A stretch of DNA of 32,840 nucleotides from Thermodesulfobacteriales bacterium (GCA_004525335.1 SPCL01000001.1:1-32840); one strand, 5' to 3'; shown: positions 16,354 through 30,152, counted from the stretch's first letter. The notes: generated by a model from the letters alone, not told the origin. Program-made: numbers and translations.

Positions 16354-17452
16354 ATGATAGGCGATAACAAAGAACAAATCCAAGATATAAAGAAAAGATT
16401 AGTAATAATTGGAGACTATCTTTGACCTGCCTGGCAAAGAATCCAGATTAAGCGAGTTAGAAGAAATCACTGGTAAACCCGAATTTTGGGATAACGCAGA
16501 CCTAGCCCAAGAAACACTTAGAGAACAATCGCTAATTAAACAGACTGTTGAGCAGTGGCAGAGCTTAACTTCTGAGCTAGAAGATGTTGAAGTCTTAGAA
16601 GAGCTTTCACTAGAAGAAGGCGATGAGGATGCTTTGGCAGAGGCTAAGGCAAAATTGTCGGAGATCGAGGTAAAGGTAGAGAATCTTGAATTTAAGAGGA
16701 TTCTTGGGGAGCCTGAGGACGCAAGTAACGCAATTGTTTCTATTAATGCGGGAGCGGGCGGAACAGAGGCTCAAGACTGGGCAGATATGCTACTGCGGAT
16801 GTATCTAAGATACGCCGAAAGAAGCGGCTTCAAATCAGAAATAGTAGAATATCAGGAAGGGGACGAAGCCGGGCTTAAAAGCGCGACCTTTCTTGTTAAG
16901 GGAGATTATGCGTTTGGCTATTTAAAGGCTGAGAGCGGCGTACACCGTTTAGTTAGAATCTCCCCCTTTGATTCAAACAAAAGAAGACATACTTCCTTTG
17001 CCTCAGTTTTCATTTCCCCTGAGATTGACGATAGCATTGAAGTCGATATCGACGAAAAAGACTTGAGGATTGACACTTACCGGGCAAGCGGAGCAGGCGG
17101 GCAGCATGTGAATAAAACTGATTCCGCCATCCGAATTACTCACGGCCCTTCAGGAATAGTTGTAAGCTGCCAAAATGAACGCTCCCAACGTCAAAATAAA
17201 GAAACAGCGATGAAGATTCTTCGCGCGAGACTTTATGAACGAGAAAGAGAAAAGCAGAGGGAAAAAATTGATGAGCTTAACTCAACCAAAAAAGAAATAG
17301 GATGGGGTAGTCAAATCCGCTCTTACGTACTTCATCCATATAGAATGATAAAAGACCACAGAACTAATTTTGAAACCGGAAACGTAGACCCCGTGTTAGA
17401 CGGTGATCTGAGTGAGTTTATCAAGAGTTACTTGATTTACGCCTCAAGTTAA
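16354..17452 (+). CDS. prfB: Peptide chain release factor 2, expressed through a programmed +1 frameshift (join 16354..16422, 16424..17452)
   Basis: Frame-0 ORF MIGDNKEQIQDIKKRLVIIGDYL ends at the in-frame TGA at 16423-16425 within CTT TGA C. The +1 frame continues DLPGKESRLSELEE... and carries the RF2 SPF and GGQ motifs (RISPFDS, SGAGGQHVNKT). Confidence 0.95.
16411..16426 (+). promoter_or_regulatory. prfB: prfB autoregulatory +1 frameshift site (internal SD-like GGAG + CTT TGA C)
   Basis: The sequence GGAGAC TAT CTT TGA C matches the conserved RF2 recoding cassette, an SD-like element a few nt upstream of the CUU-UGA-C slippery/stop context. Confidence 0.9.
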
Positions 17453-27012: not shown

Positions 27013-28248
27013 ATGACAAAAGCAAGAAGAATTCTTTTTATTACAGTTTTGTGTCTTATTGCAGGCGCTTTTCATATTAGCTGTGACGGTGGAGGTGATA
27101 GCAGTGGTCAAAACACTCAGACAACCACCATTAACGGCACGGTAACAAATATAATAGCCTCAGCACAAAAAGAAGAGAGATCTTTTAAGTTTACAAAAAT
27201 TTTAGATATCATAACCTTCATAAAAGAAGCTAAAGCACAAGGTGGTGTTTTAGTGACGGCTATTATTGACGGAATTACAGTAGATAGCGATGTTACTGAC
27301 CCTGAGGGCGACTTCACACTTACATTAGAGCTGGATTCTGCAACAAATGTATTAATCCTCTTTGATGTAAACGGAGAGGATGTTTCTATTGAGCTCGTTG
27401 TAGAAGAAGGATCTATATTAAATATAAACATAAGTATAGACCTCAACGCACCTCCCGGAGACGAAGTCGAAATAGTGGAGATGGAAGAAGTGAGGGGTCC
27501 GATCCGCTGTGAGAACGGAACCGTAAACATTATCAAGAATGAAAATGAGACACTTGTTATAGACGGTGGTGGAGAAGACTGTATTAAAGCTGAAGGGAAC
27601 TGCACGGTGTTTATCGACCCCGAAGATGTACTTTTAACGAATTGCGAGAGTTGTGTGAAGGCAGAAGGAACATCGATGGTAACTATAGTAAGCCCAAATG
27701 GAGATATAGTTTGCGAAGCGAGTGAAGACGGATATAAAGCAGAAGGTGATGCCGAGATAGTAATTGACGCAGTCGGAGTAATCGATATATCGGCGGGAGA
27801 TAATGGACTAAAGGCGGAAGGCAATTCCATCATCTCACTCGGCGCTGATACGTGTATAATTAATTCCCTAGAAAGCTCGATAGATGTAAGCGGTAATGCC
27901 ACAATCGACACAAGCGGCTGTGGGGAAATAGTAGAAGCCCCATCACCGTCTCCAAGTCCGAGTCCTAATCCATCACCGAGTCCATCTCCTTCACCTAGCC
28001 CGAGTCCTAGTCCATCACCAAGTCCGTCTCCTTCACCAAGTCCACCGCCTCCTCTTGGGGTAGCGCTCTATATAAGCAATTGTCAAAGCTGTCACGGAGT
28101 AGACGGCATGGGTGGCCCTTTTTCTAATGTTGTTGGTAAATCGGCAGGTGCGATTTCGACCGCCATTATGGAGATACCGGCAATGTCGAGTCTTAGTTTC
28201 CTCTCAGCAGCAGAAATTAATGCAATCGCTGTGTTTCTTGCTCCATAA
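27013..28248 (+). CDS. Secreted or lipid-anchored multidomain protein: prealbumin-like N-domain, Cys-rich KAEG repeats, (Pro-Ser)n linker and a C-terminal monoheme c-type cytochrome domain
   Basis: 411 aa. SD AGGGAGGA upstream. N-terminal signal sequence ends in Cys24 (AFHISC, a non-canonical lipobox). Shows INGTVTN...DPEGDFTLTL, four repeats around [IVYL]KAEG, a 38-aa PS-rich linker, then LYISNCQSCHG (CxxCH at 28081-28095) with a downstream Met (IPAMS) and AAEINAIAVFL, typical of small class-I cytochromes c. Confidence 0.85.
   Translation: MTKARRILFITVLCLIAGAFHISCDGGGDSSGQNTQTTTINGTVTNIIASAQKEERSFKFTKILDIITFIKEAKAQGGVLVTAIIDGITVDSDVTDPEGDFTLTLELDSATNVLILFDVNGEDVSIELVVEEGSILNINISIDLNAPPGDEVEIVEMEEVRGPIRCENGTVNIIKNENETLVIDGGGEDCIKAEGNCTVFIDPEDVLLTNCESCVKAEGTSMVTIVSPNGDIVCEASEDGYKAEGDAEIVIDAVGVIDISAGDNGLKAEGNSIISLGADTCIINSLESSIDVSGNATIDTSGCGEIVEAPSPSPSPSPNPSPSPSPSPSPSPSPSPSPSPSPSPPPPLGVALYISNCQSCHGVDGMGGPFSNVVGKSAGAISTAIMEIPAMSSLSFLSAAEINAIAVFLAP
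27940..28053 (+). repeat. Coding low-complexity repeat: (Pro-Ser)n / PPPP linker with a 42-nt higher-order periodicity
   Basis: Read directly: PSPSPSPSPNPSPS...SPPPP (38 aa). Synonymous codons are mixed. CCATCACCGAGTCCATCTCCTTCACC (27970 on) recurs as CCATCACCAAGTCCGTCTCCTTCACC (28012 on). Confidence 0.9.
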
Positions 28249-28340: not shown

Positions 28341-28409
28341 GTCCCGGCCTGGTTAGAGCACTGGGTTGTGGCCCCAGAGATCGGTGGTTCAAGTCCAGCC
28401 AGCGACCCA
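28341..28409 (+). tRNA. tRNA-His(GUG)-like sequence with a defective 5' end (possible pseudo-tRNA or truncated copy)
   Basis: Clean anticodon arm CTGGG-TTGTGGC-CCCAG with anticodon GTG. T-arm GGTGG-TTCAAGT-CCAGC has one G-G mismatch. D-loop-like GCCTGGTTAGAGC. 3' end CAGCGAC-C-CA. Two folds are possible, and neither is complete. GTCCCGG (28341-47) as the 5' acceptor strand pairs only 5 of 7 and leaves too few nucleotides for a D-arm. With TA-GTCC...GAGC as the D-arm, the upstream ATTTGTC does not pair with the 3' acceptor strand. No G-1. Confidence 0.45.
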
Positions 28410-28590
28410 CTTCCATCATAATTAACCTCTATGATCCTGATCGATAGGTTTGAAGTGATACGCTAAAACGGGGCGGAGCACAGAGTGGATCCACCCTTCC
28501 AATTATTGACATAAAAAACCGCTTTGTTTGAGAGAAAATATCGGTTTAAATATATATAATCTTTTCACCCGCTTACGGAGGCGCTCACTG

Positions 28591-28998
28591 ATGACACTTT
28601 CTATAATTAAAAGAGGACTTCATATCACCACCATATTGTTAGTATTAATCACCTTCGTCCCTGTTTCTCTAATATCTACAAGCGCCAAAGCCGCCGTAGC
28701 AGAATCCCAAATGATTGCGCCGGAACAAAATGCATCAACAAAAAGAGAAATTAACGAACTCAAAGTAAAACGCGCCTTGGAAAACAAGATTGTTGCTGAA
28801 AAATTAATGAGTCACGGACTCACCAAAGAAGAAGTTTTTCTCAAAATAAACGAGATGAGTGATGAGCAGGTACATCAAATAGCATCCCTCAGCGACCGTA
28901 TCCCTGCCGGTGGAGATGGCGGGCTCGCTATTGTTATTAGTCTACTTATAATAGCTGCACTAGTGCTCCTAATAATTTATTTATATAAGAGAGTATAA
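28591..28998 (+). CDS. Small exported protein with a C-terminal PAGG-TM-basic tail (resembles what I recall as the 'PA2779 family')
   Basis: 135 aa from ATG 28591, with SD GGAGG 9 nt upstream. The ORF-track start at 28528 looks like an extension. N-terminal signal peptide (...LISTSAKA/AV), an ~80-aa charged helical region, IPAGGDGG (28903-28923), then the hydrophobic helix LAIVISLLIIAALVLLIIYLY and KRV. Confidence 0.75.
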   Translation: MTLSIIKRGLHITTILLVLITFVPVSLISTSAKAAVAESQMIAPEQNASTKREINELKVKRALENKIVAEKLMSHGLTKEEVFLKINEMSDEQVHQIASLSDRIPAGGDGGLAIVISLLIIAALVLLIIYLYKRV

Positions 28999-29016
28999 GC
29001 AGCTACAGCGTCTCTA

Positions 29017-29568
29017 ATGCCCCGACTTTACAATATATTAATTCTGTATTTATTAGTTTTCTTTGTGTCAGGCTGCGCTCAAAATGAACCTGTTATAAAG
29101 TCCTACTCTGAAGTTAATAAGGTTGTAGTTATAGAGAATGTTCCATTTGTAAAACAGAAGGACAAATTCTGCGGTCCGGCTTCTATGGCTTCAGTGATGC
29201 AATTCTATGACGAGGATATAAGCCAAGATGAAATCGCAGAAGAAATTTACATACCGGAATTAAACGGTGCACTTATCTCAGATATGGAAAATTATGCGAA
29301 AGACAGTGGTTACACTACAGAGAGCATAAACGGCAGTATTGAAATCCTCAAATCAAATCTAGATAATAAGCACCCGGTCATACTGCTGGTTGATAAGGGC
29401 AAATGGAAAATTAGTGTTCCGCACTTCTACGTTGCATATGGGTATAATGGTGAGAAAGGAACGATTATCCTGCATACTGGATATAAGCAAAACCAAGAAA
29501 TAAGCTATGATAAGCTGGATCAAGAATGGGGAAAAATGAACAGACTTATGTTAGTAATAACACCGTGA
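29017..29568 (+). CDS. C39-like (papain-fold, double-glycine-type) cysteine peptidase lipoprotein
   Basis: 183 aa. Lipoprotein signal with lipobox VSGC (Cys20). Shows VKQKDKFCGPASMASVMQFY (Gln47 / Cys52-Gly53) and PHFYVAYGY (His), then ...SYDKLDQEWG. The order and spacing match peptidase C39-type domains. Lies 18 nt after the preceding gene. Confidence 0.8.
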   Translation: MPRLYNILILYLLVFFVSGCAQNEPVIKSYSEVNKVVVIENVPFVKQKDKFCGPASMASVMQFYDEDISQDEIAEEIYIPELNGALISDMENYAKDSGYTTESINGSIEILKSNLDNKHPVILLVDKGKWKISVPHFYVAYGYNGEKGTIILHTGYKQNQEISYDKLDQEWGKMNRLMLVITP

Positions 29569-30152
29569 GAAACTCCATAATAGAGTTTTACCCACTGGTT
29601 ATTTTTATTTTAATTTTCTGTGGAAGCTGTGCATCACTAGAGGGATCGCTTTTCATGAAAGATCCACTCAATGCACAAGAGCACAATAATCTTGGCGTGA
29701 TTTATGAAAGGGAAGGCAAAAACGATCTGGCTATTAGAGAATATAAAAGCGCAATTAGCAGCGACAACACCTTGGCAACACCCCTTGTAAATCTAGGGAA
29801 TGTTTACTTTAAAGAAGGTGAATATACAAAAGCAGAGAAGTATTATAAGAGAGCGCTTAACTATGATGAAACAAATTTAGAAGCGGCAAATAATCTTGCC
29901 TCTTTATATATTGAAATAGGCGCGCAATATAAAGAAGGCCTTGAATATATGCTTCAAGCTACAAAAAACCTTGAAATAATCCCGCCATATGCGCTTGATA
30001 CAATTGGGGTATTGTACATAAAACTTGGGGACAACGTCGAAGCTGAAAGAGTTCTTATCCGGGCTTGCAACAATATTAAAGACAATGAATCTCTAAGAGA
30101 AGAAATACGCTCTCACCTTTGGCAATTGGGTATTAATAAAAGATGTGGATAA
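29565..30152 (+). CDS. TPR-repeat protein with an N-terminal signal/anchor sequence
   Basis: Start set at GTG 29565, which overlaps the peptidase stop (GTGA). It gives VRNSIIEFYPLVIFILIFCGSCAS..., a hydrophobic leader. At least three TPR units follow (HNNLGVIYEREGKNDLAIREYKSAI, LVNLGNVYFKEGEYTKAEKYYKRAL, ANNLASLY...). The ORF-track start is 29526. Confidence 0.8.
   Translation: MRNSIIEFYPLVIFILIFCGSCASLEGSLFMKDPLNAQEHNNLGVIYEREGKNDLAIREYKSAISSDNTLATPLVNLGNVYFKEGEYTKAEKYYKRALNYDETNLEAANNLASLYIEIGAQYKEGLEYMLQATKNLEIIPPYALDTIGVLYIKLGDNVEAERVLIRACNNIKDNESLREEIRSHLWQLGINKRCG

What the first reader, a model, noticed from the sequence alone, without database searches (positions are those of the whole stretch)
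28591..30152. Three-gene envelope cassette: PAGG-TM-basic tailed protein, C39-like cysteine-peptidase lipoprotein and TPR protein, a candidate uncharacterised processing or sorting module
**Seen in the sequence:**
- Three co-directional genes are packed as one unit. There is an 18-nt gap, then a GTGA stop/start overlap.
- Gene 1 encodes a 135-aa protein. It has a Sec-type signal peptide, a charged helical region and a C-terminus with three parts: IPAGGDGG, a ~21-residue hydrophobic helix, and KRV.
- That layout (short motif, TM helix, basic cluster) is the architecture of C-terminal sorting signals such as LPXTG, PEP-CTERM and GlyGly-CTERM.
- Gene 2 is a lipoprotein (lipobox VSGC). It carries Gln...Cys-Gly and His signatures in the order found in peptidase family C39.
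- Gene 3 is a TPR protein with its own hydrophobic leader.

**Established knowledge:** C39 peptidases cleave after Gly-Gly, normally in N-terminal bacteriocin leaders.

**From memory, unverified:**
- The pair resembles the Pseudomonas aeruginosa PA2779 family plus the PA2778 family cysteine peptidase. In PA2778 the peptidase and TPR parts are fused.
- As far as I know these are named families with no experimentally assigned function.

**Inference:**
- The lipoprotein peptidase, with the TPR protein as substrate adaptor, may cleave gene 1's product at the conserved GG next to the membrane anchor.
- That would release or re-anchor the helical domain.
- It would place a double-glycine cleavage site at the C-terminal side of a periplasmic protein, which is not the described C39 mode.
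Basis: partly seen in the sequence, partly recalled or inferred. Interest (0 to 1): 0.72.

Follow-up and report, generated by a model that had tools for sequence, protein, structure and literature searches.

The report
Split PA2779/PA2778 envelope peptidase cassette
This is a real three-gene operon encoding a small membrane-anchored periplasmic protein, a C39-type cysteine-peptidase lipoprotein and a TPR lipoprotein. It is a split-gene copy of the catalogued but functionally untested PA2779/PA2778 family pair, and the idea that the peptidase cuts the small protein at its conserved Gly-Gly is plausible but unproven.

Summary
**Observation: confirmed.**
- Gene 1 (28591-28998) passes the NCBIfam PA2779-family cut-off and Pfam DUF6627.
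- Gene 2 (29017-29568) matches the peptidase half of the PA2778-family model, and gene 3 (GTG 29565-30152) matches its TPR half. The window therefore carries a split PA2778.

**Supporting results**
- A model of gene 2 (pLDDT 87) matches the ComA double-glycine peptidase domain (TM 0.87).
- Gln47, Cys52 and His136 are invariant in 133/133 relatives.
- In C39-seeded genome loci, a PA2779-family gene lies directly upstream in 37/37 loci with upstream DNA.
- In PA2779-seeded loci, a C39 gene is adjacent or within about 1 kb in 8 of 9 informative loci.
- The TPR part is fused, split or absent depending on lineage, so the core is two genes.
- In gene-1 relatives the conserved motif is [GA]-G-D, not PAGG. 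It follows an amphipathic helix and precedes the membrane helix.

**Interpretation**
- Cleavage at this motif is consistent with the topology and conservation I found, but it could not be tested here.
- No functional study was found. The only phenotype is a Pseudomonas aeruginosa transposon-screen hit for PA2779.
- It is not a general sorting signal, because the motif occurs on this one protein family only.

**Verdict:** a new member of a named, uncharacterised kind, of moderate interest.

The parts
28577..28581 (+). Shine-Dalgarno-like GGAGG, 9 nt upstream of the gene 1 ATG
   Evidence: Read directly. It supports ATG 28591 over the upstream TTG 28528. All close homologues also start at this Met.
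28591..28998 (+). Gene 1: PA2779-family / DUF6627 protein, 135 aa
   Evidence: NF033919 scores 77.2 bits (cut-off 40). PF20332 scores 35 bits (gathering score 27). 935 representative clusters at 50% identity match at E<=1e-3.
28591..28692 (+). Gene 1 signal peptide (aa 1-34), predicted signal peptidase I cleavage after A32-K33-A34
   Evidence: Hydrophobic core at residues 9-31. Ala34 is conserved in 79/84 relatives, position -3 (Ala32) is A, V or S in 63 of 84, and Pro is common at position 29. Cleavage itself is inferred.
28693..28908 (+). Gene 1 periplasmic helical domain (aa 35-106). Its C-terminal part (aa 86-104) is a conserved amphipathic helix.
   Evidence: The most conserved columns are R52, L63, E64, L72, G76, E81, H95 and A98. 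Hydrophobic columns lie at -5, -8, -12, -15, -20 and -23 relative to G108. No PDB relative was found.
28909..28917 (+). G107-G108-D109: the family-conserved [GA]-G-D motif and candidate peptidase cleavage site
   Evidence: In 119 representatives, position -2 is G in 97 and A in 20, position -1 is G in 107, and position +1 is D in 83. These are among the most informative columns of the family. Cleavage is untested.
28918..28986 (+). Gene 1 C-terminal transmembrane helix (aa 110-132)
   Evidence: Kyte-Doolittle 19-residue windows reach up to 3.28. L119, L124 and V125 are conserved across the family.
28987..28995 (+). Gene 1 cytoplasmic K-R-V tail
   Evidence: Read from the sequence. This short basic end occurs in 18 of 119 representatives. 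The others have longer tails of the form x-K-[ED]-I-V-V-[KR].
29017..29568 (+). Gene 2: C39-type cysteine-peptidase lipoprotein, 183 aa. It corresponds to the peptidase half of a PA2778-family protein.
   Evidence: NF033920 positions 2-146 of 255, 105.8 bits. PF13529 scores 54.8 bits and PF03412 scores 51.2 bits. The AF2 model has pLDDT 87.4. The best structural match is ComA peptidase domain 3k8u, TM 0.87, rmsd 2.1 A.
29065..29076 (+). Gene 2 lipobox V-S-G-C (Cys20)
   Evidence: Cys is present at this column in 111 of 133 relatives. Aquificae relatives instead have a short Cys-less signal peptide.
29170..29172 (+). Gene 2 catalytic Cys52 codon (TGC)
   Evidence: Cys is present in 133/133 relatives. 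It aligns with the nucleophilic Cys of ComA in the CGPA motif.
29422..29424 (+). Gene 2 catalytic His136 codon (CAC)
   Evidence: His is present in 133/133 relatives. It aligns with the ComA His in the 'HYYVVYG' motif.
29565..30152 (+). Gene 3: TPR lipoprotein, 195 aa from GTG. It corresponds to the TPR half of a PA2778-family protein and is translationally coupled to gene 2 (GTGA overlap).
   Evidence: TPR_2, TPR_1 and TPR_8 hits. NF033920 positions 166-240, 32 bits. Homologues follow the C39 gene in all Dadabacteria-type loci and in Hydrogenothermaceae-type loci.
29628..29630 (+). Gene 3 lipobox cysteine (Cys22 counted from the GTG)
   Evidence: It aligns with the Cys of L-x-[GSA]-C in all 20 homologues. 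A conserved D-P-L-[ST]-x-x-E-H-x-x-L-G-V-x-Y-E segment follows.

Best explanation
The cassette is a dedicated periplasmic protease-substrate pair plus an accessory scaffold.

**Proposed steps**
1. Gene 1's product is exported by Sec.
2. It loses its signal peptide at the A-x-A site.
3. It then sits in the inner membrane as a type I protein. A roughly 8-kDa helical domain faces the periplasm, held by a single C-terminal helix.
4. The gene 2 product is a lipid-anchored C39 (double-glycine type) cysteine peptidase in the same compartment.
5. It docks on the conserved amphipathic helix that ends just before [GA]-G-D, and cuts after the Gly pair at the membrane surface.
6. This frees the helical domain into the periplasm and leaves a 27-residue membrane stub.
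7. The TPR lipoprotein binds the peptidase. The evidence is translational coupling here and fusion to the peptidase in other lineages. It tunes or positions the peptidase but is not essential to the chemistry.

**Shown**
- Family membership.
- Strict gene pairing.
- Conservation of the motif and of the catalytic residues.
- The ComA-like fold.
- Export signals on all three proteins.

**Inferred**
- Signal-peptide cleavage.
- Membrane topology.
- Docking of the peptidase on the helix.
- The cleavage itself and its position.
- The role of the TPR protein.

The biological purpose of the released domain is unknown.
For: **Gene pairing**
- A PA2779-family ORF lies directly upstream and co-directional in 37/37 C39-seeded genome loci that have upstream DNA.
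- A C39 gene lies adjacent, or within about 1 kb and divergent, in 8 of 9 informative PA2779-seeded loci.
- Junctions between the two genes range from -4 to about +30 nt in most loci. These span Thermodesulfobacteriota/Dadabacteria, Aquificota, Humidesulfovibrio and unnamed metagenome lineages.

**Peptidase is active-type**
- Gln47, Cys52 and His136 are present in 133/133 relatives. The third triad position is His in 123 and Asn in 10.
- This argues for an active enzyme rather than a degenerate binding module.

**Fold**
- The model has pLDDT 87.4.
- Its best PDB matches are double-glycine peptidase domains: ComA, PCAT1 and LahT150. The profile alignment to ComA has E=1e-9.

**Motif in gene 1**
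- [GA]-G is among the top-conserved columns.
- Conserved hydrophobic positions precede it at -5, -8, -12 and -15.
- LahT150 docks leader residues -4, -7 and -12 of a helix in a hydrophobic groove before a Gly-Gly site (PMC6363468).

**Tandem paralogues**
- Gene-1 paralogues occur in tandem upstream of a single peptidase in L028, L030, L032 and L047.
- The helix and GGD are retained while the tails diverge. Several substrates for one enzyme would give this pattern.

**Export**
- All three proteins carry export signals.
Against: - No experiment or complex model supports cleavage.
- The hydrophobic register before Gly-Gly differs by one residue from classical leaders (-5/-8 versus -4/-7).
- The third triad residue is His or Asn, not Asp.
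- Conservation of Gly-Gly-Asp at a helix-membrane junction could be purely structural.
- The membrane helix and the cytoplasmic tail are themselves well conserved. That is odd for a stub destined to be discarded.
- By the Escherichia coli +2 rule, the peptidase and TPR lipoproteins (Cys-Ala) would go to the outer membrane, far from an inner-membrane-proximal site. The rule may not hold in this phylum.
- One family member (L046) has no C39 gene within 4 kb.
- The P. aeruginosa transposon screen found PA2779 insertions depleted. A protective or inhibitory partner would explain that equally well.
Confidence: 0.45

Rival explanations
1. Gene 1's product is not cleaved. It is a membrane-anchored partner of the peptidase: a tether, pseudo-substrate inhibitor or regulator. 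The real substrates lie elsewhere in the envelope, either other exported proteins or peptidoglycan peptides. The TPR lipoprotein then acts as an adaptor, in the way NlpI serves the papain-fold endopeptidase MepS in Escherichia coli (own knowledge).
For: - The gene-1 membrane helix and tail are conserved.
- Tight stoichiometric-looking coupling links the genes.
- PA2779 insertions are depleted in a P. aeruginosa transposon screen (logFC -5.69, q=0.0024). Loss of a restraining partner of an active peptidase would give this result.
- Peptidase_C39_2 domains also occur in phage cell-wall lysins (titles).
- The pseudomurein endoisopeptidase PeiR is among the structural matches.
Against: - The closest sequence and structure relatives are true double-glycine leader peptidases, not cell-wall enzymes.
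- A non-substrate tether would not obviously need a near-invariant [GA]-G pair preceded by a leader-like helix.
- The NlpI model scores 15.9 bits against a cut-off of 250, and no NlpC/P60 match was found.
Confidence: 0.28
2. The mechanism is sortase-like. The cysteine peptidase forms a thioacyl intermediate at the Gly-Gly carboxyl. It then transfers the helical domain to another acceptor, a lipid head group or a peptidoglycan amine, re-anchoring it rather than simply releasing it.
For: - The layout is tripartite: motif, membrane helix and basic tail.
- Papain-fold enzymes that work through acyl-enzyme transfer appear among the distant structural matches, for example the phytochelatin synthase acyl intermediate 2bu3.
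- Rhombosortase substrates with a Gly-rich C-terminal signal remain cell-surface-associated after processing (abstracts of PMC6219818 and PMC13393428). That they acquire a lipid-type modification is from my own knowledge.
Against: - No acceptor-related gene is conserved next to the pair. Flanks differ between lineages.
- The motif is on one protein family only.
- C39 enzymes are known as hydrolases.
- Nothing here tests transfer.
Confidence: 0.1
3. The useful product is the C-terminal hydrophobic cationic peptide (27 residues here). It would be released from a long leader as in class II bacteriocins or NHLP/Nif11-type precursors.
For: - The layout is a long N-terminal region, then Gly-Gly, then a short hydrophobic peptide ending in Lys-Arg.
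- The membrane segment is well conserved.
- Tandem precursor-like paralogues occur.
Against: - The N-terminal domain is more conserved than the C-terminal peptide, the reverse of bacteriocin precursors.
- No transporter, immunity or modification genes are linked.
- The peptide would insert into the producer's own membrane as a stop-transfer anchor.
- The module sits in a housekeeping context and is vertically inherited within Dadabacteria.
Confidence: 0.05
4. The pair is a type VI secretion toxin-immunity pair, as floated for PA2778 and its small neighbour in the P. aeruginosa transposon study.
For: The preprint lists the C39 protein as a possible toxin. PA2779 insertions are depleted when the H1 system is active.
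Against: - Both proteins carry Sec-type export or lipoprotein signals.
- The pair sits in housekeeping contexts in Aquificota and Dadabacteria, with no secretion-system genes nearby.
- No PADLOC match and no toxin-family match were found.
Confidence: 0.02

Closest known systems
PA2779 family protein (NCBIfam NF033919; Pfam DUF6627, PF20332) with PA2778 family cysteine peptidase (NF033920) of Pseudomonas aeruginosa
   Same: - Gene 1 passes the NF033919 cut-off.
- Genes 2 and 3 together cover the NF033920 model.
- Gene order and tight linkage are the same. In the fused example L050, the peptidase passes the cut-off at 169.8 bits.
   Different: - The peptidase and TPR parts are separate, translationally coupled genes here.
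- Neither reaches the 150-bit equivalog cut-off alone.
- Both halves carry their own lipoprotein signal.
- The families are names only. I found no functional study.
C39 double-glycine peptidase domains of peptidase-containing ABC transporters (ComA, PCAT1, LahT)
   Same: - The fold matches (TM 0.87 to 3k8u).
- The Gln...Cys-Gly-Pro-Ala...His signature is shared.
- The candidate substrate has a helix followed by Gly-Gly.
   Different: - It is a stand-alone lipoprotein in the periplasm, not the cytoplasmic N-terminal domain of an exporter.
- The third triad residue is His or Asn, not Asp.
- The putative substrate is Sec-exported and membrane-anchored.
- The hydrophobic register is shifted by one residue.
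- No transporter is linked.
GlyGly-CTERM / rhombosortase and other tripartite C-terminal sorting signals (LPXTG, PEP-CTERM, MYXO-CTERM)
   Same: The layout is a short Gly-containing motif, a membrane helix and a basic end at the extreme C-terminus, with a linked cysteine or serine processing enzyme as the idea.
   Different: - Sorting signals tag many unrelated cargo proteins for one sortase (title and abstract of PMC3237569). This motif occurs on a single roughly 130-residue family.
- The candidate enzyme is a soluble-domain papain-fold lipoprotein, not an intramembrane protease.
- No CTERM model matches at E<=1.
- Most family members have a longer patterned tail.
NlpI-MepS of Escherichia coli: a TPR lipoprotein adaptor with a papain-fold cysteine endopeptidase lipoprotein (own knowledge)
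   Same: A TPR lipoprotein is paired with a papain-fold cysteine-peptidase lipoprotein in the periplasm.
   Different: - No NlpC/P60 domain is present.
- The NlpI model scores far below its cut-off (15.9 versus 250 bits).
- NlpI-MepS has no PA2779-like third partner and is not a conserved operon of this form.

Membership tests
PA2779 family protein (NF033919) / DUF6627 (PF20332) | Profile score above the curated cut-off | tested here: met
   77.2 bits against a cut-off of 40. 35 bits against a gathering score of 27.
PA2779 family protein (NF033919) / DUF6627 (PF20332) | About 125-140 residues with an N-terminal signal peptide, a helical middle and a C-terminal membrane helix | tested here: met
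   135 aa. Hydrophobic segments at residues 9-31 and 110-132. Relatives share the same layout.
PA2779 family protein (NF033919) / DUF6627 (PF20332) | Encoded next to a PA2778-type C39 peptidase | tested here: met
   An 18-nt gap separates it from gene 2. Pairing holds in 37/37 C39-seeded loci and 8/9 PA2779-seeded loci.
PA2778 family cysteine peptidase (NF033920, equivalog) | Whole-protein score of at least 150 bits | tested here: not met
   Gene 2 scores 105.8 bits and gene 3 scores 32.2 bits. The fused homologue in L050 scores 169.8 bits. The shortfall arises because the model spans two genes here.
PA2778 family cysteine peptidase (NF033920, equivalog) | C39 peptidase domain followed by TPR repeats in one polypeptide | tested here: not met
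   The two parts are separate ORFs with a GTGA overlap. They match model positions 2-146 and 166-240 respectively.
Peptidase family C39 (Pfam PF03412 / PF13529) | Profile match above the gathering score, and a papain-like fold | tested here: met
   PF03412 scores 51.2 bits (gathering score 22). PF13529 scores 54.8 bits (gathering score 24). Foldseek TM is 0.87 to ComA 3k8u.
Peptidase family C39 (Pfam PF03412 / PF13529) | Conserved Gln, nucleophilic Cys and His | tested here: met
   Q47, C52 and H136 are present in 133/133 relatives and align with ComA.
Peptidase family C39 (Pfam PF03412 / PF13529) | Asp as the third triad residue (Asp117 in LahT; PMC6363468) | tested here: not met
   The equivalent strand position holds His153 in 123 relatives and Asn in 10. 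The sequence alignment there is accurate only to within one residue.
Peptidase family C39 (Pfam PF03412 / PF13529) | Cleavage after a Gly-Gly (or Gly-Ala / Gly-Ser) site | not testable with these tools
   This needs biochemistry.
Peptidase family C39 (Pfam PF03412 / PF13529) | N-terminal domain of an ABC exporter | tested here: not met
   Gene 2 is a 183-aa stand-alone lipoprotein. No ABC transporter lies in the window or in related loci.
Tripartite C-terminal sorting signals (GlyGly-CTERM and similar) | Signature motif, membrane helix and basic cluster at the extreme C-terminus | tested here: met
   GGD, a helix at residues 110-132, then KRV. This short end is the minority form in the family (18 of 119).
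Tripartite C-terminal sorting signals (GlyGly-CTERM and similar) | The signal is appended to many unrelated cargo proteins (many-to-one with the sortase) | tested here: not met
   Profile hits are almost all proteins of about 130 aa with one architecture. The one long hit (P0295) matches only the helical module and has no C-terminal membrane helix.
Tripartite C-terminal sorting signals (GlyGly-CTERM and similar) | Match to a curated CTERM domain model, and a cognate intramembrane sortase | tested here: not met
   No CTERM model matches at E<=1. No rhombosortase- or exosortase-like family was found among the window ORFs scanned.
NlpI-type TPR lipoprotein adaptor | Score above the NlpI model cut-off | tested here: not met
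   NF008391 scores 15.9 bits against a cut-off of 250. The similarity is generic TPR.

The most novel reading that the evidence does not exclude
The PA2779/C39 pair is a previously unrecognised envelope maturation system of diderm bacteria. A periplasmic papain-fold lipoprotein acts as a dedicated 'sortase' for one abundant small protein. It cuts at [GA]-G-D on the membrane surface and transfers the helical domain to another envelope acceptor (lipid or peptidoglycan) rather than merely releasing it.
Probability: 0.1. Interest if true: 0.8.

Novelty: new member of a known kind. Interest (0 to 1): 0.5.

Why it matters
**Breadth**
- 935 sequence clusters at 50% identity match the family.
- Members occur in Thermodesulfobacteriota/Dadabacteria, Aquificota and Desulfovibrio relatives.
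- By its family name and the literature, it also occurs in Pseudomonas.

**Functional knowledge**
- No function is assigned.
- In Pseudomonas stutzeri the small gene appears in a table of a screen for strong constitutive promoters.
- In P. aeruginosa it gave a strong signal in a transposon screen.

**If cleavage is real**
- C39 peptidases would not be confined to exporter-coupled leader removal.
- A periplasmic double-glycine protease with a built-in membrane-anchored substrate would be a new envelope processing route.
- A handful of simple experiments in a tractable organism could test this.

**If it is not real**
- The pair is still a conserved envelope module worth a knockout study.

Tried and rejected
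- **Genome scan with gene-1 alignments:** I used the C39 alignment instead.
- **Single-sequence structure prediction of gene 2:** useless (pLDDT 46). I repeated it with a 50-sequence alignment.
- **PDB profile searches for gene 1:** only chance-level hits to helical proteins.
- **Rfam and tRNA scans of the region:** only a sub-threshold tRNA-like hit at 28346-28399 (E=0.41), and ARAGORN found no tRNA anywhere in the window.
- **Promoter and terminator scan:** nothing above shuffled expectation.
- **PADLOC:** no defence-system match.
- **Literature searches** for PA2778, PA2779, DUF6627, the NCBIfam and Pfam accessions, and periplasmic C39 plus TPR: no functional study.
- **Short contigs:** two contig look-ups landed on contigs too short to show neighbours (L001, L051).
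- **Type VI toxin-immunity reading:** considered and rejected because of the export signals and the housekeeping context.
- **Covariation** between the -2 residue (Gly or Ala) and peptidase pocket residues: considered, but with about 45 pairs, mostly Gly-Gly, there was no power.
Full report
**1. What is in the sequence**

Three co-directional ORFs lie at 28591-28998, 29017-29568 and 29565-30152.
- Gene 1 is preceded by GGAGG, 9 nt upstream of its ATG.
- Genes 1 and 2 are 18 nt apart.
- Gene 3 starts at a GTG that overlaps the TGA of gene 2 (GTGA).
- The upstream in-frame ATG 29526 is a less likely start for gene 3. In many homologues the ORF begins only at the position aligned with the GTG.
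- The cassette is bounded upstream by a 343-nt spacer and an unrelated cytochrome-c-domain gene. Downstream lies the convergent methionyl-tRNA formyltransferase gene.
- The whole window is ordinary chromosomal housekeeping DNA: dnaB, aroC, prfB, glyA, nrdR, pdxA, coaD, rsmD and fmt.

**2. Family identity**

- Gene 1 scores 77.2 bits against NCBIfam NF033919 'PA2779 family protein' (cut-off 40). It also passes Pfam DUF6627.
- Gene 2 matches positions 2-146 of the 255-position NF033920 'PA2778 family cysteine peptidase' model (105.8 bits).
- Gene 3 matches positions 166-240 of the same model (32 bits).
- So the window holds a PA2778 equivalent split into two translationally coupled genes. Neither half reaches the 150-bit cut-off alone.
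- A fused 333-residue peptidase-TPR protein next to a PA2779-family gene was recovered in locus L050. It scores 169.8 bits over the whole model.

**3. Source organism**

The nearest genome locus is a Thermodesulfobacteriota MAG (92% identity on gene 2). Other close loci are labelled Candidatus Dadabacteria.

**4. Gene 1 anatomy**

- There is an N-terminal signal peptide. Its hydrophobic core spans residues 9-31.
- The A-x-A site is conserved: Ala34 in 79/84 relatives, and A, V or S in 63 of 84 at position -3 (Ala32).
- A 74-residue acidic helical region follows (8.2 kDa, pI 5.7).
- Then come G107-G108-D109, a hydrophobic helix (residues 110-132) and K-R-V.
- Across 119 representatives at 50% identity:
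  - the residue aligned with G107 is Gly in 97 and Ala in 20;
  - G108 is Gly in 107;
  - D109 is Asp in 83.
- These columns rank with the most conserved of the family. The Pro and Ala of 'PAGG' do not.
- Upstream of the Gly pair, conserved hydrophobic columns fall at -5, -8, -12, -15, -20 and -23. This is an amphipathic helix running almost up to the motif.
- Only 18 of 119 representatives end in the short basic x-[KR]-[VILT]. Most carry a longer patterned tail such as K-L-x-x-K-[ED]-I-V-V-[KR].
- No solved structure is related.

**5. Gene 2 anatomy**

- The lipobox is V-S-G-C. Cys20 is present in 111/133 relatives. Aquificae relatives instead have a short Cys-less signal peptide.
- The first, single-sequence model was poor. 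With a 50-sequence alignment the model reached pLDDT 87.4.
- Its best PDB matches are:
  - the ComA peptidase domain (3k8u: TM 0.87, rmsd 2.1 A, 27% identity);
  - PCAT1 and LahT150;
  - more distant papain-fold enzymes.
- Gln47, Cys52 and His136 align with the ComA Gln, Cys and His. They are present in 133/133 relatives.
- At the strand position of the classical third residue (Asp117 in LahT, PMC6363468), this family has His (123) or Asn (10).
- I could not measure Cys-His geometry because model coordinates are not exposed.

**6. Gene 3 anatomy**

- It is a TPR protein.
- It has a conserved lipobox Cys.
- A strongly conserved D-P-L-[ST]-x-x-E-H-x-x-L-G-V-x-Y-E segment follows immediately.

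**7. Co-occurrence**

*C39-seeded scan.* A scan of species-representative genomes returned 39 loci. I searched them with my own profiles.
- A PA2779-family ORF lies directly upstream on the same strand in all 37 loci that have upstream DNA. The other two are cut at the contig edge.

*PA2779-seeded look-ups.* Nine were informative.
- Thermocrinis albus and one other MAG have the pair without a TPR gene.
- Humidesulfovibrio and three metagenome lineages have the split three-gene form.
- One lineage has the peptidase and TPR genes divergently placed about 1 kb away.
- One has the fused form.
- One (L046) has no peptidase within 4 kb and lies close to a transposase.

*Conclusions from the loci.*
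- The conserved core is two genes. The TPR part is fused, split or absent.
- Four loci carry two tandem gene-1 paralogues before one peptidase. The helix and GGD are retained, and the tails differ.
- Within Dadabacteria the cassette sits in a fixed rsmD/coaD...fmt neighbourhood. Elsewhere the flanks differ, so the cassette behaves as a self-contained module.
- The gene-1 profile finds 935 clusters at 50% identity.

**8. Most likely mechanism**

- All three products are exported.
- The gene-1 protein should sit in the inner membrane, with its helical domain in the periplasm and the Gly pair a few residues above the bilayer.
- The peptidase is of the double-glycine type and is under strict selection for its catalytic residues.
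- LahT150 recognises its substrates through a helix whose residues -4, -7 and -12 fill a hydrophobic groove ahead of Gly-Gly (PMC6363468). The gene-1 family offers a similar helix, with the proximal register shifted by one.
- The best reading is therefore a dedicated protease-substrate pair. The peptidase would cut after the Gly pair and release the 8-kDa domain, with the TPR protein as a non-essential scaffold. I put this at about 0.45.
- Seen from the enzyme, this is the usual C39 logic: helix, Gly-Gly, then a C-terminal peptide. The novelty would lie in three things:
  - the compartment;
  - the stand-alone lipoprotein enzyme;
  - the 'core' being a membrane anchor.

**9. Rival explanations**

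| Rival | Main support | Main objection | Confidence |
|---|---|---|---|
| Non-cleaved partner or inhibitor | Conserved membrane helix and tail; transposon-screen result | Closest relatives are true leader peptidases | 0.28 |
| Sortase-like transfer | Tripartite layout | No linked acceptor genes; nothing tests transfer | 0.10 |
| C-terminal peptide as the product | Long leader, Gly-Gly, short cationic peptide | N-terminal domain is the more conserved part; no transporter or immunity genes | 0.05 |
| Type VI toxin-immunity pair | Preprint suggestion; screen result | Sec and lipoprotein signals; housekeeping context; no defence or toxin family match | 0.02 |

- The transposon result comes from P. 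aeruginosa PAK. Insertions in PA2779 (399 bp) were depleted with log fold change -5.69 and q=0.0024 when the H1 secretion system was active (bioRxiv 10.1101/733030 supplement).

**10. Comparison with known systems**

- The locus belongs to the named PA2779/PA2778 pair, for which I found no functional study.
- The only other mentions were:
  - a P. stutzeri table from a screen for strong constitutive promoters, which lists a PA2779-family gene (PMC10155442);
  - a P. aeruginosa mutant with a transposon between PA2779 and PA2780, where the phenotype was ascribed to PA2780 (PMC3985676).
- It is not a member of the known C-terminal sorting-signal families:
  - the motif is not appended to diverse cargo;
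  - no CTERM model matches;
  - no intramembrane sortase is nearby.
- It resembles NlpI-MepS only in pairing a TPR lipoprotein with a papain-fold lipoprotein.

**11. Verdict**

- The locus is a new member (split form) of a catalogued, uncharacterised kind.
- Interest is moderate (0.5). The family is broad and conserved, and a few simple experiments would test the idea. Against that, the hypothesis follows the family pairing already encoded in curated models, and nothing here shows chemistry outside what C39 enzymes are known to do.

Noticed in passing
window 16355-16430 (site CTTTGAC at 16420-16426), continuing into the ORF 16409-17452: This is the classic programmed +1 frameshift site of the release factor 2 gene (prfB). 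A short ORF starting at ATG 16355 ends in CTT TGA C, preceded by GGAG. The PCRF/RF-1 domains continue in the +1 frame.
   Followed up: partly
P0295 (1234-aa protein from the representative search; not in the window): The helical module of gene 1 (profile positions 68-110) matches eight or more tandem repeats in a large FecR-domain protein. That protein has no C-terminal membrane helix. The module may therefore be an independent helix-hairpin unit used elsewhere.
   Followed up: partly
L028 4051-4955; L030 3904-5004; L032 4052-4958; L047 3580-4429: Tandem duplicated PA2779-family genes lie upstream of a single C39 peptidase. In L030 the two copies are nearly identical up to the GGD motif, and then diverge completely in the membrane helix and tail.
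   Followed up: partly
window 27013-28248 (+): This 411-aa predicted lipoprotein has a long Pro-Ser repeat linker (SPSPSP...) and a C-terminal cbb3-type cytochrome c domain. A 264-aa antisense ORF (27117-27911) is probably an artefact of the repeat-rich sequence. The gene is present upstream of the cassette in only some Dadabacteria loci.
   Followed up: partly
window 28346-28399 (+): A weak tRNA-like Rfam hit (20.8 bits, gathering score 29, E=0.41) lies in the spacer upstream of gene 1. ARAGORN finds no tRNA anywhere in the window, so it is probably chance.
   Followed up: yes
bioRxiv 10.1101/733030, main text versus supplementary table: The main text calls PAKAF_02301 'PA2778, C39 peptidase'. 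The supplementary table maps PAKAF_02301 to PA2780 (a helix-turn-helix regulator) and PAKAF_02302 to PA2779. The strongly depleted small gene is therefore PA2779 itself.
   Followed up: partly
L046 4001-4423: An orphan PA2779-family gene has an intact GGD motif and membrane helix but no C39 peptidase within 4 kb. It lies about 2 kb from a DDE transposase.
   Followed up: partly
L044 4349-4940: In one Aquificales MAG an unrelated gene is inserted between the PA2779-family gene and the C39 gene. From motifs in its translation, and from memory only, it looks like a fumarylacetoacetate-hydrolase-type enzyme. This is the only same-strand locus seen where the pair is not contiguous.
   Followed up: no
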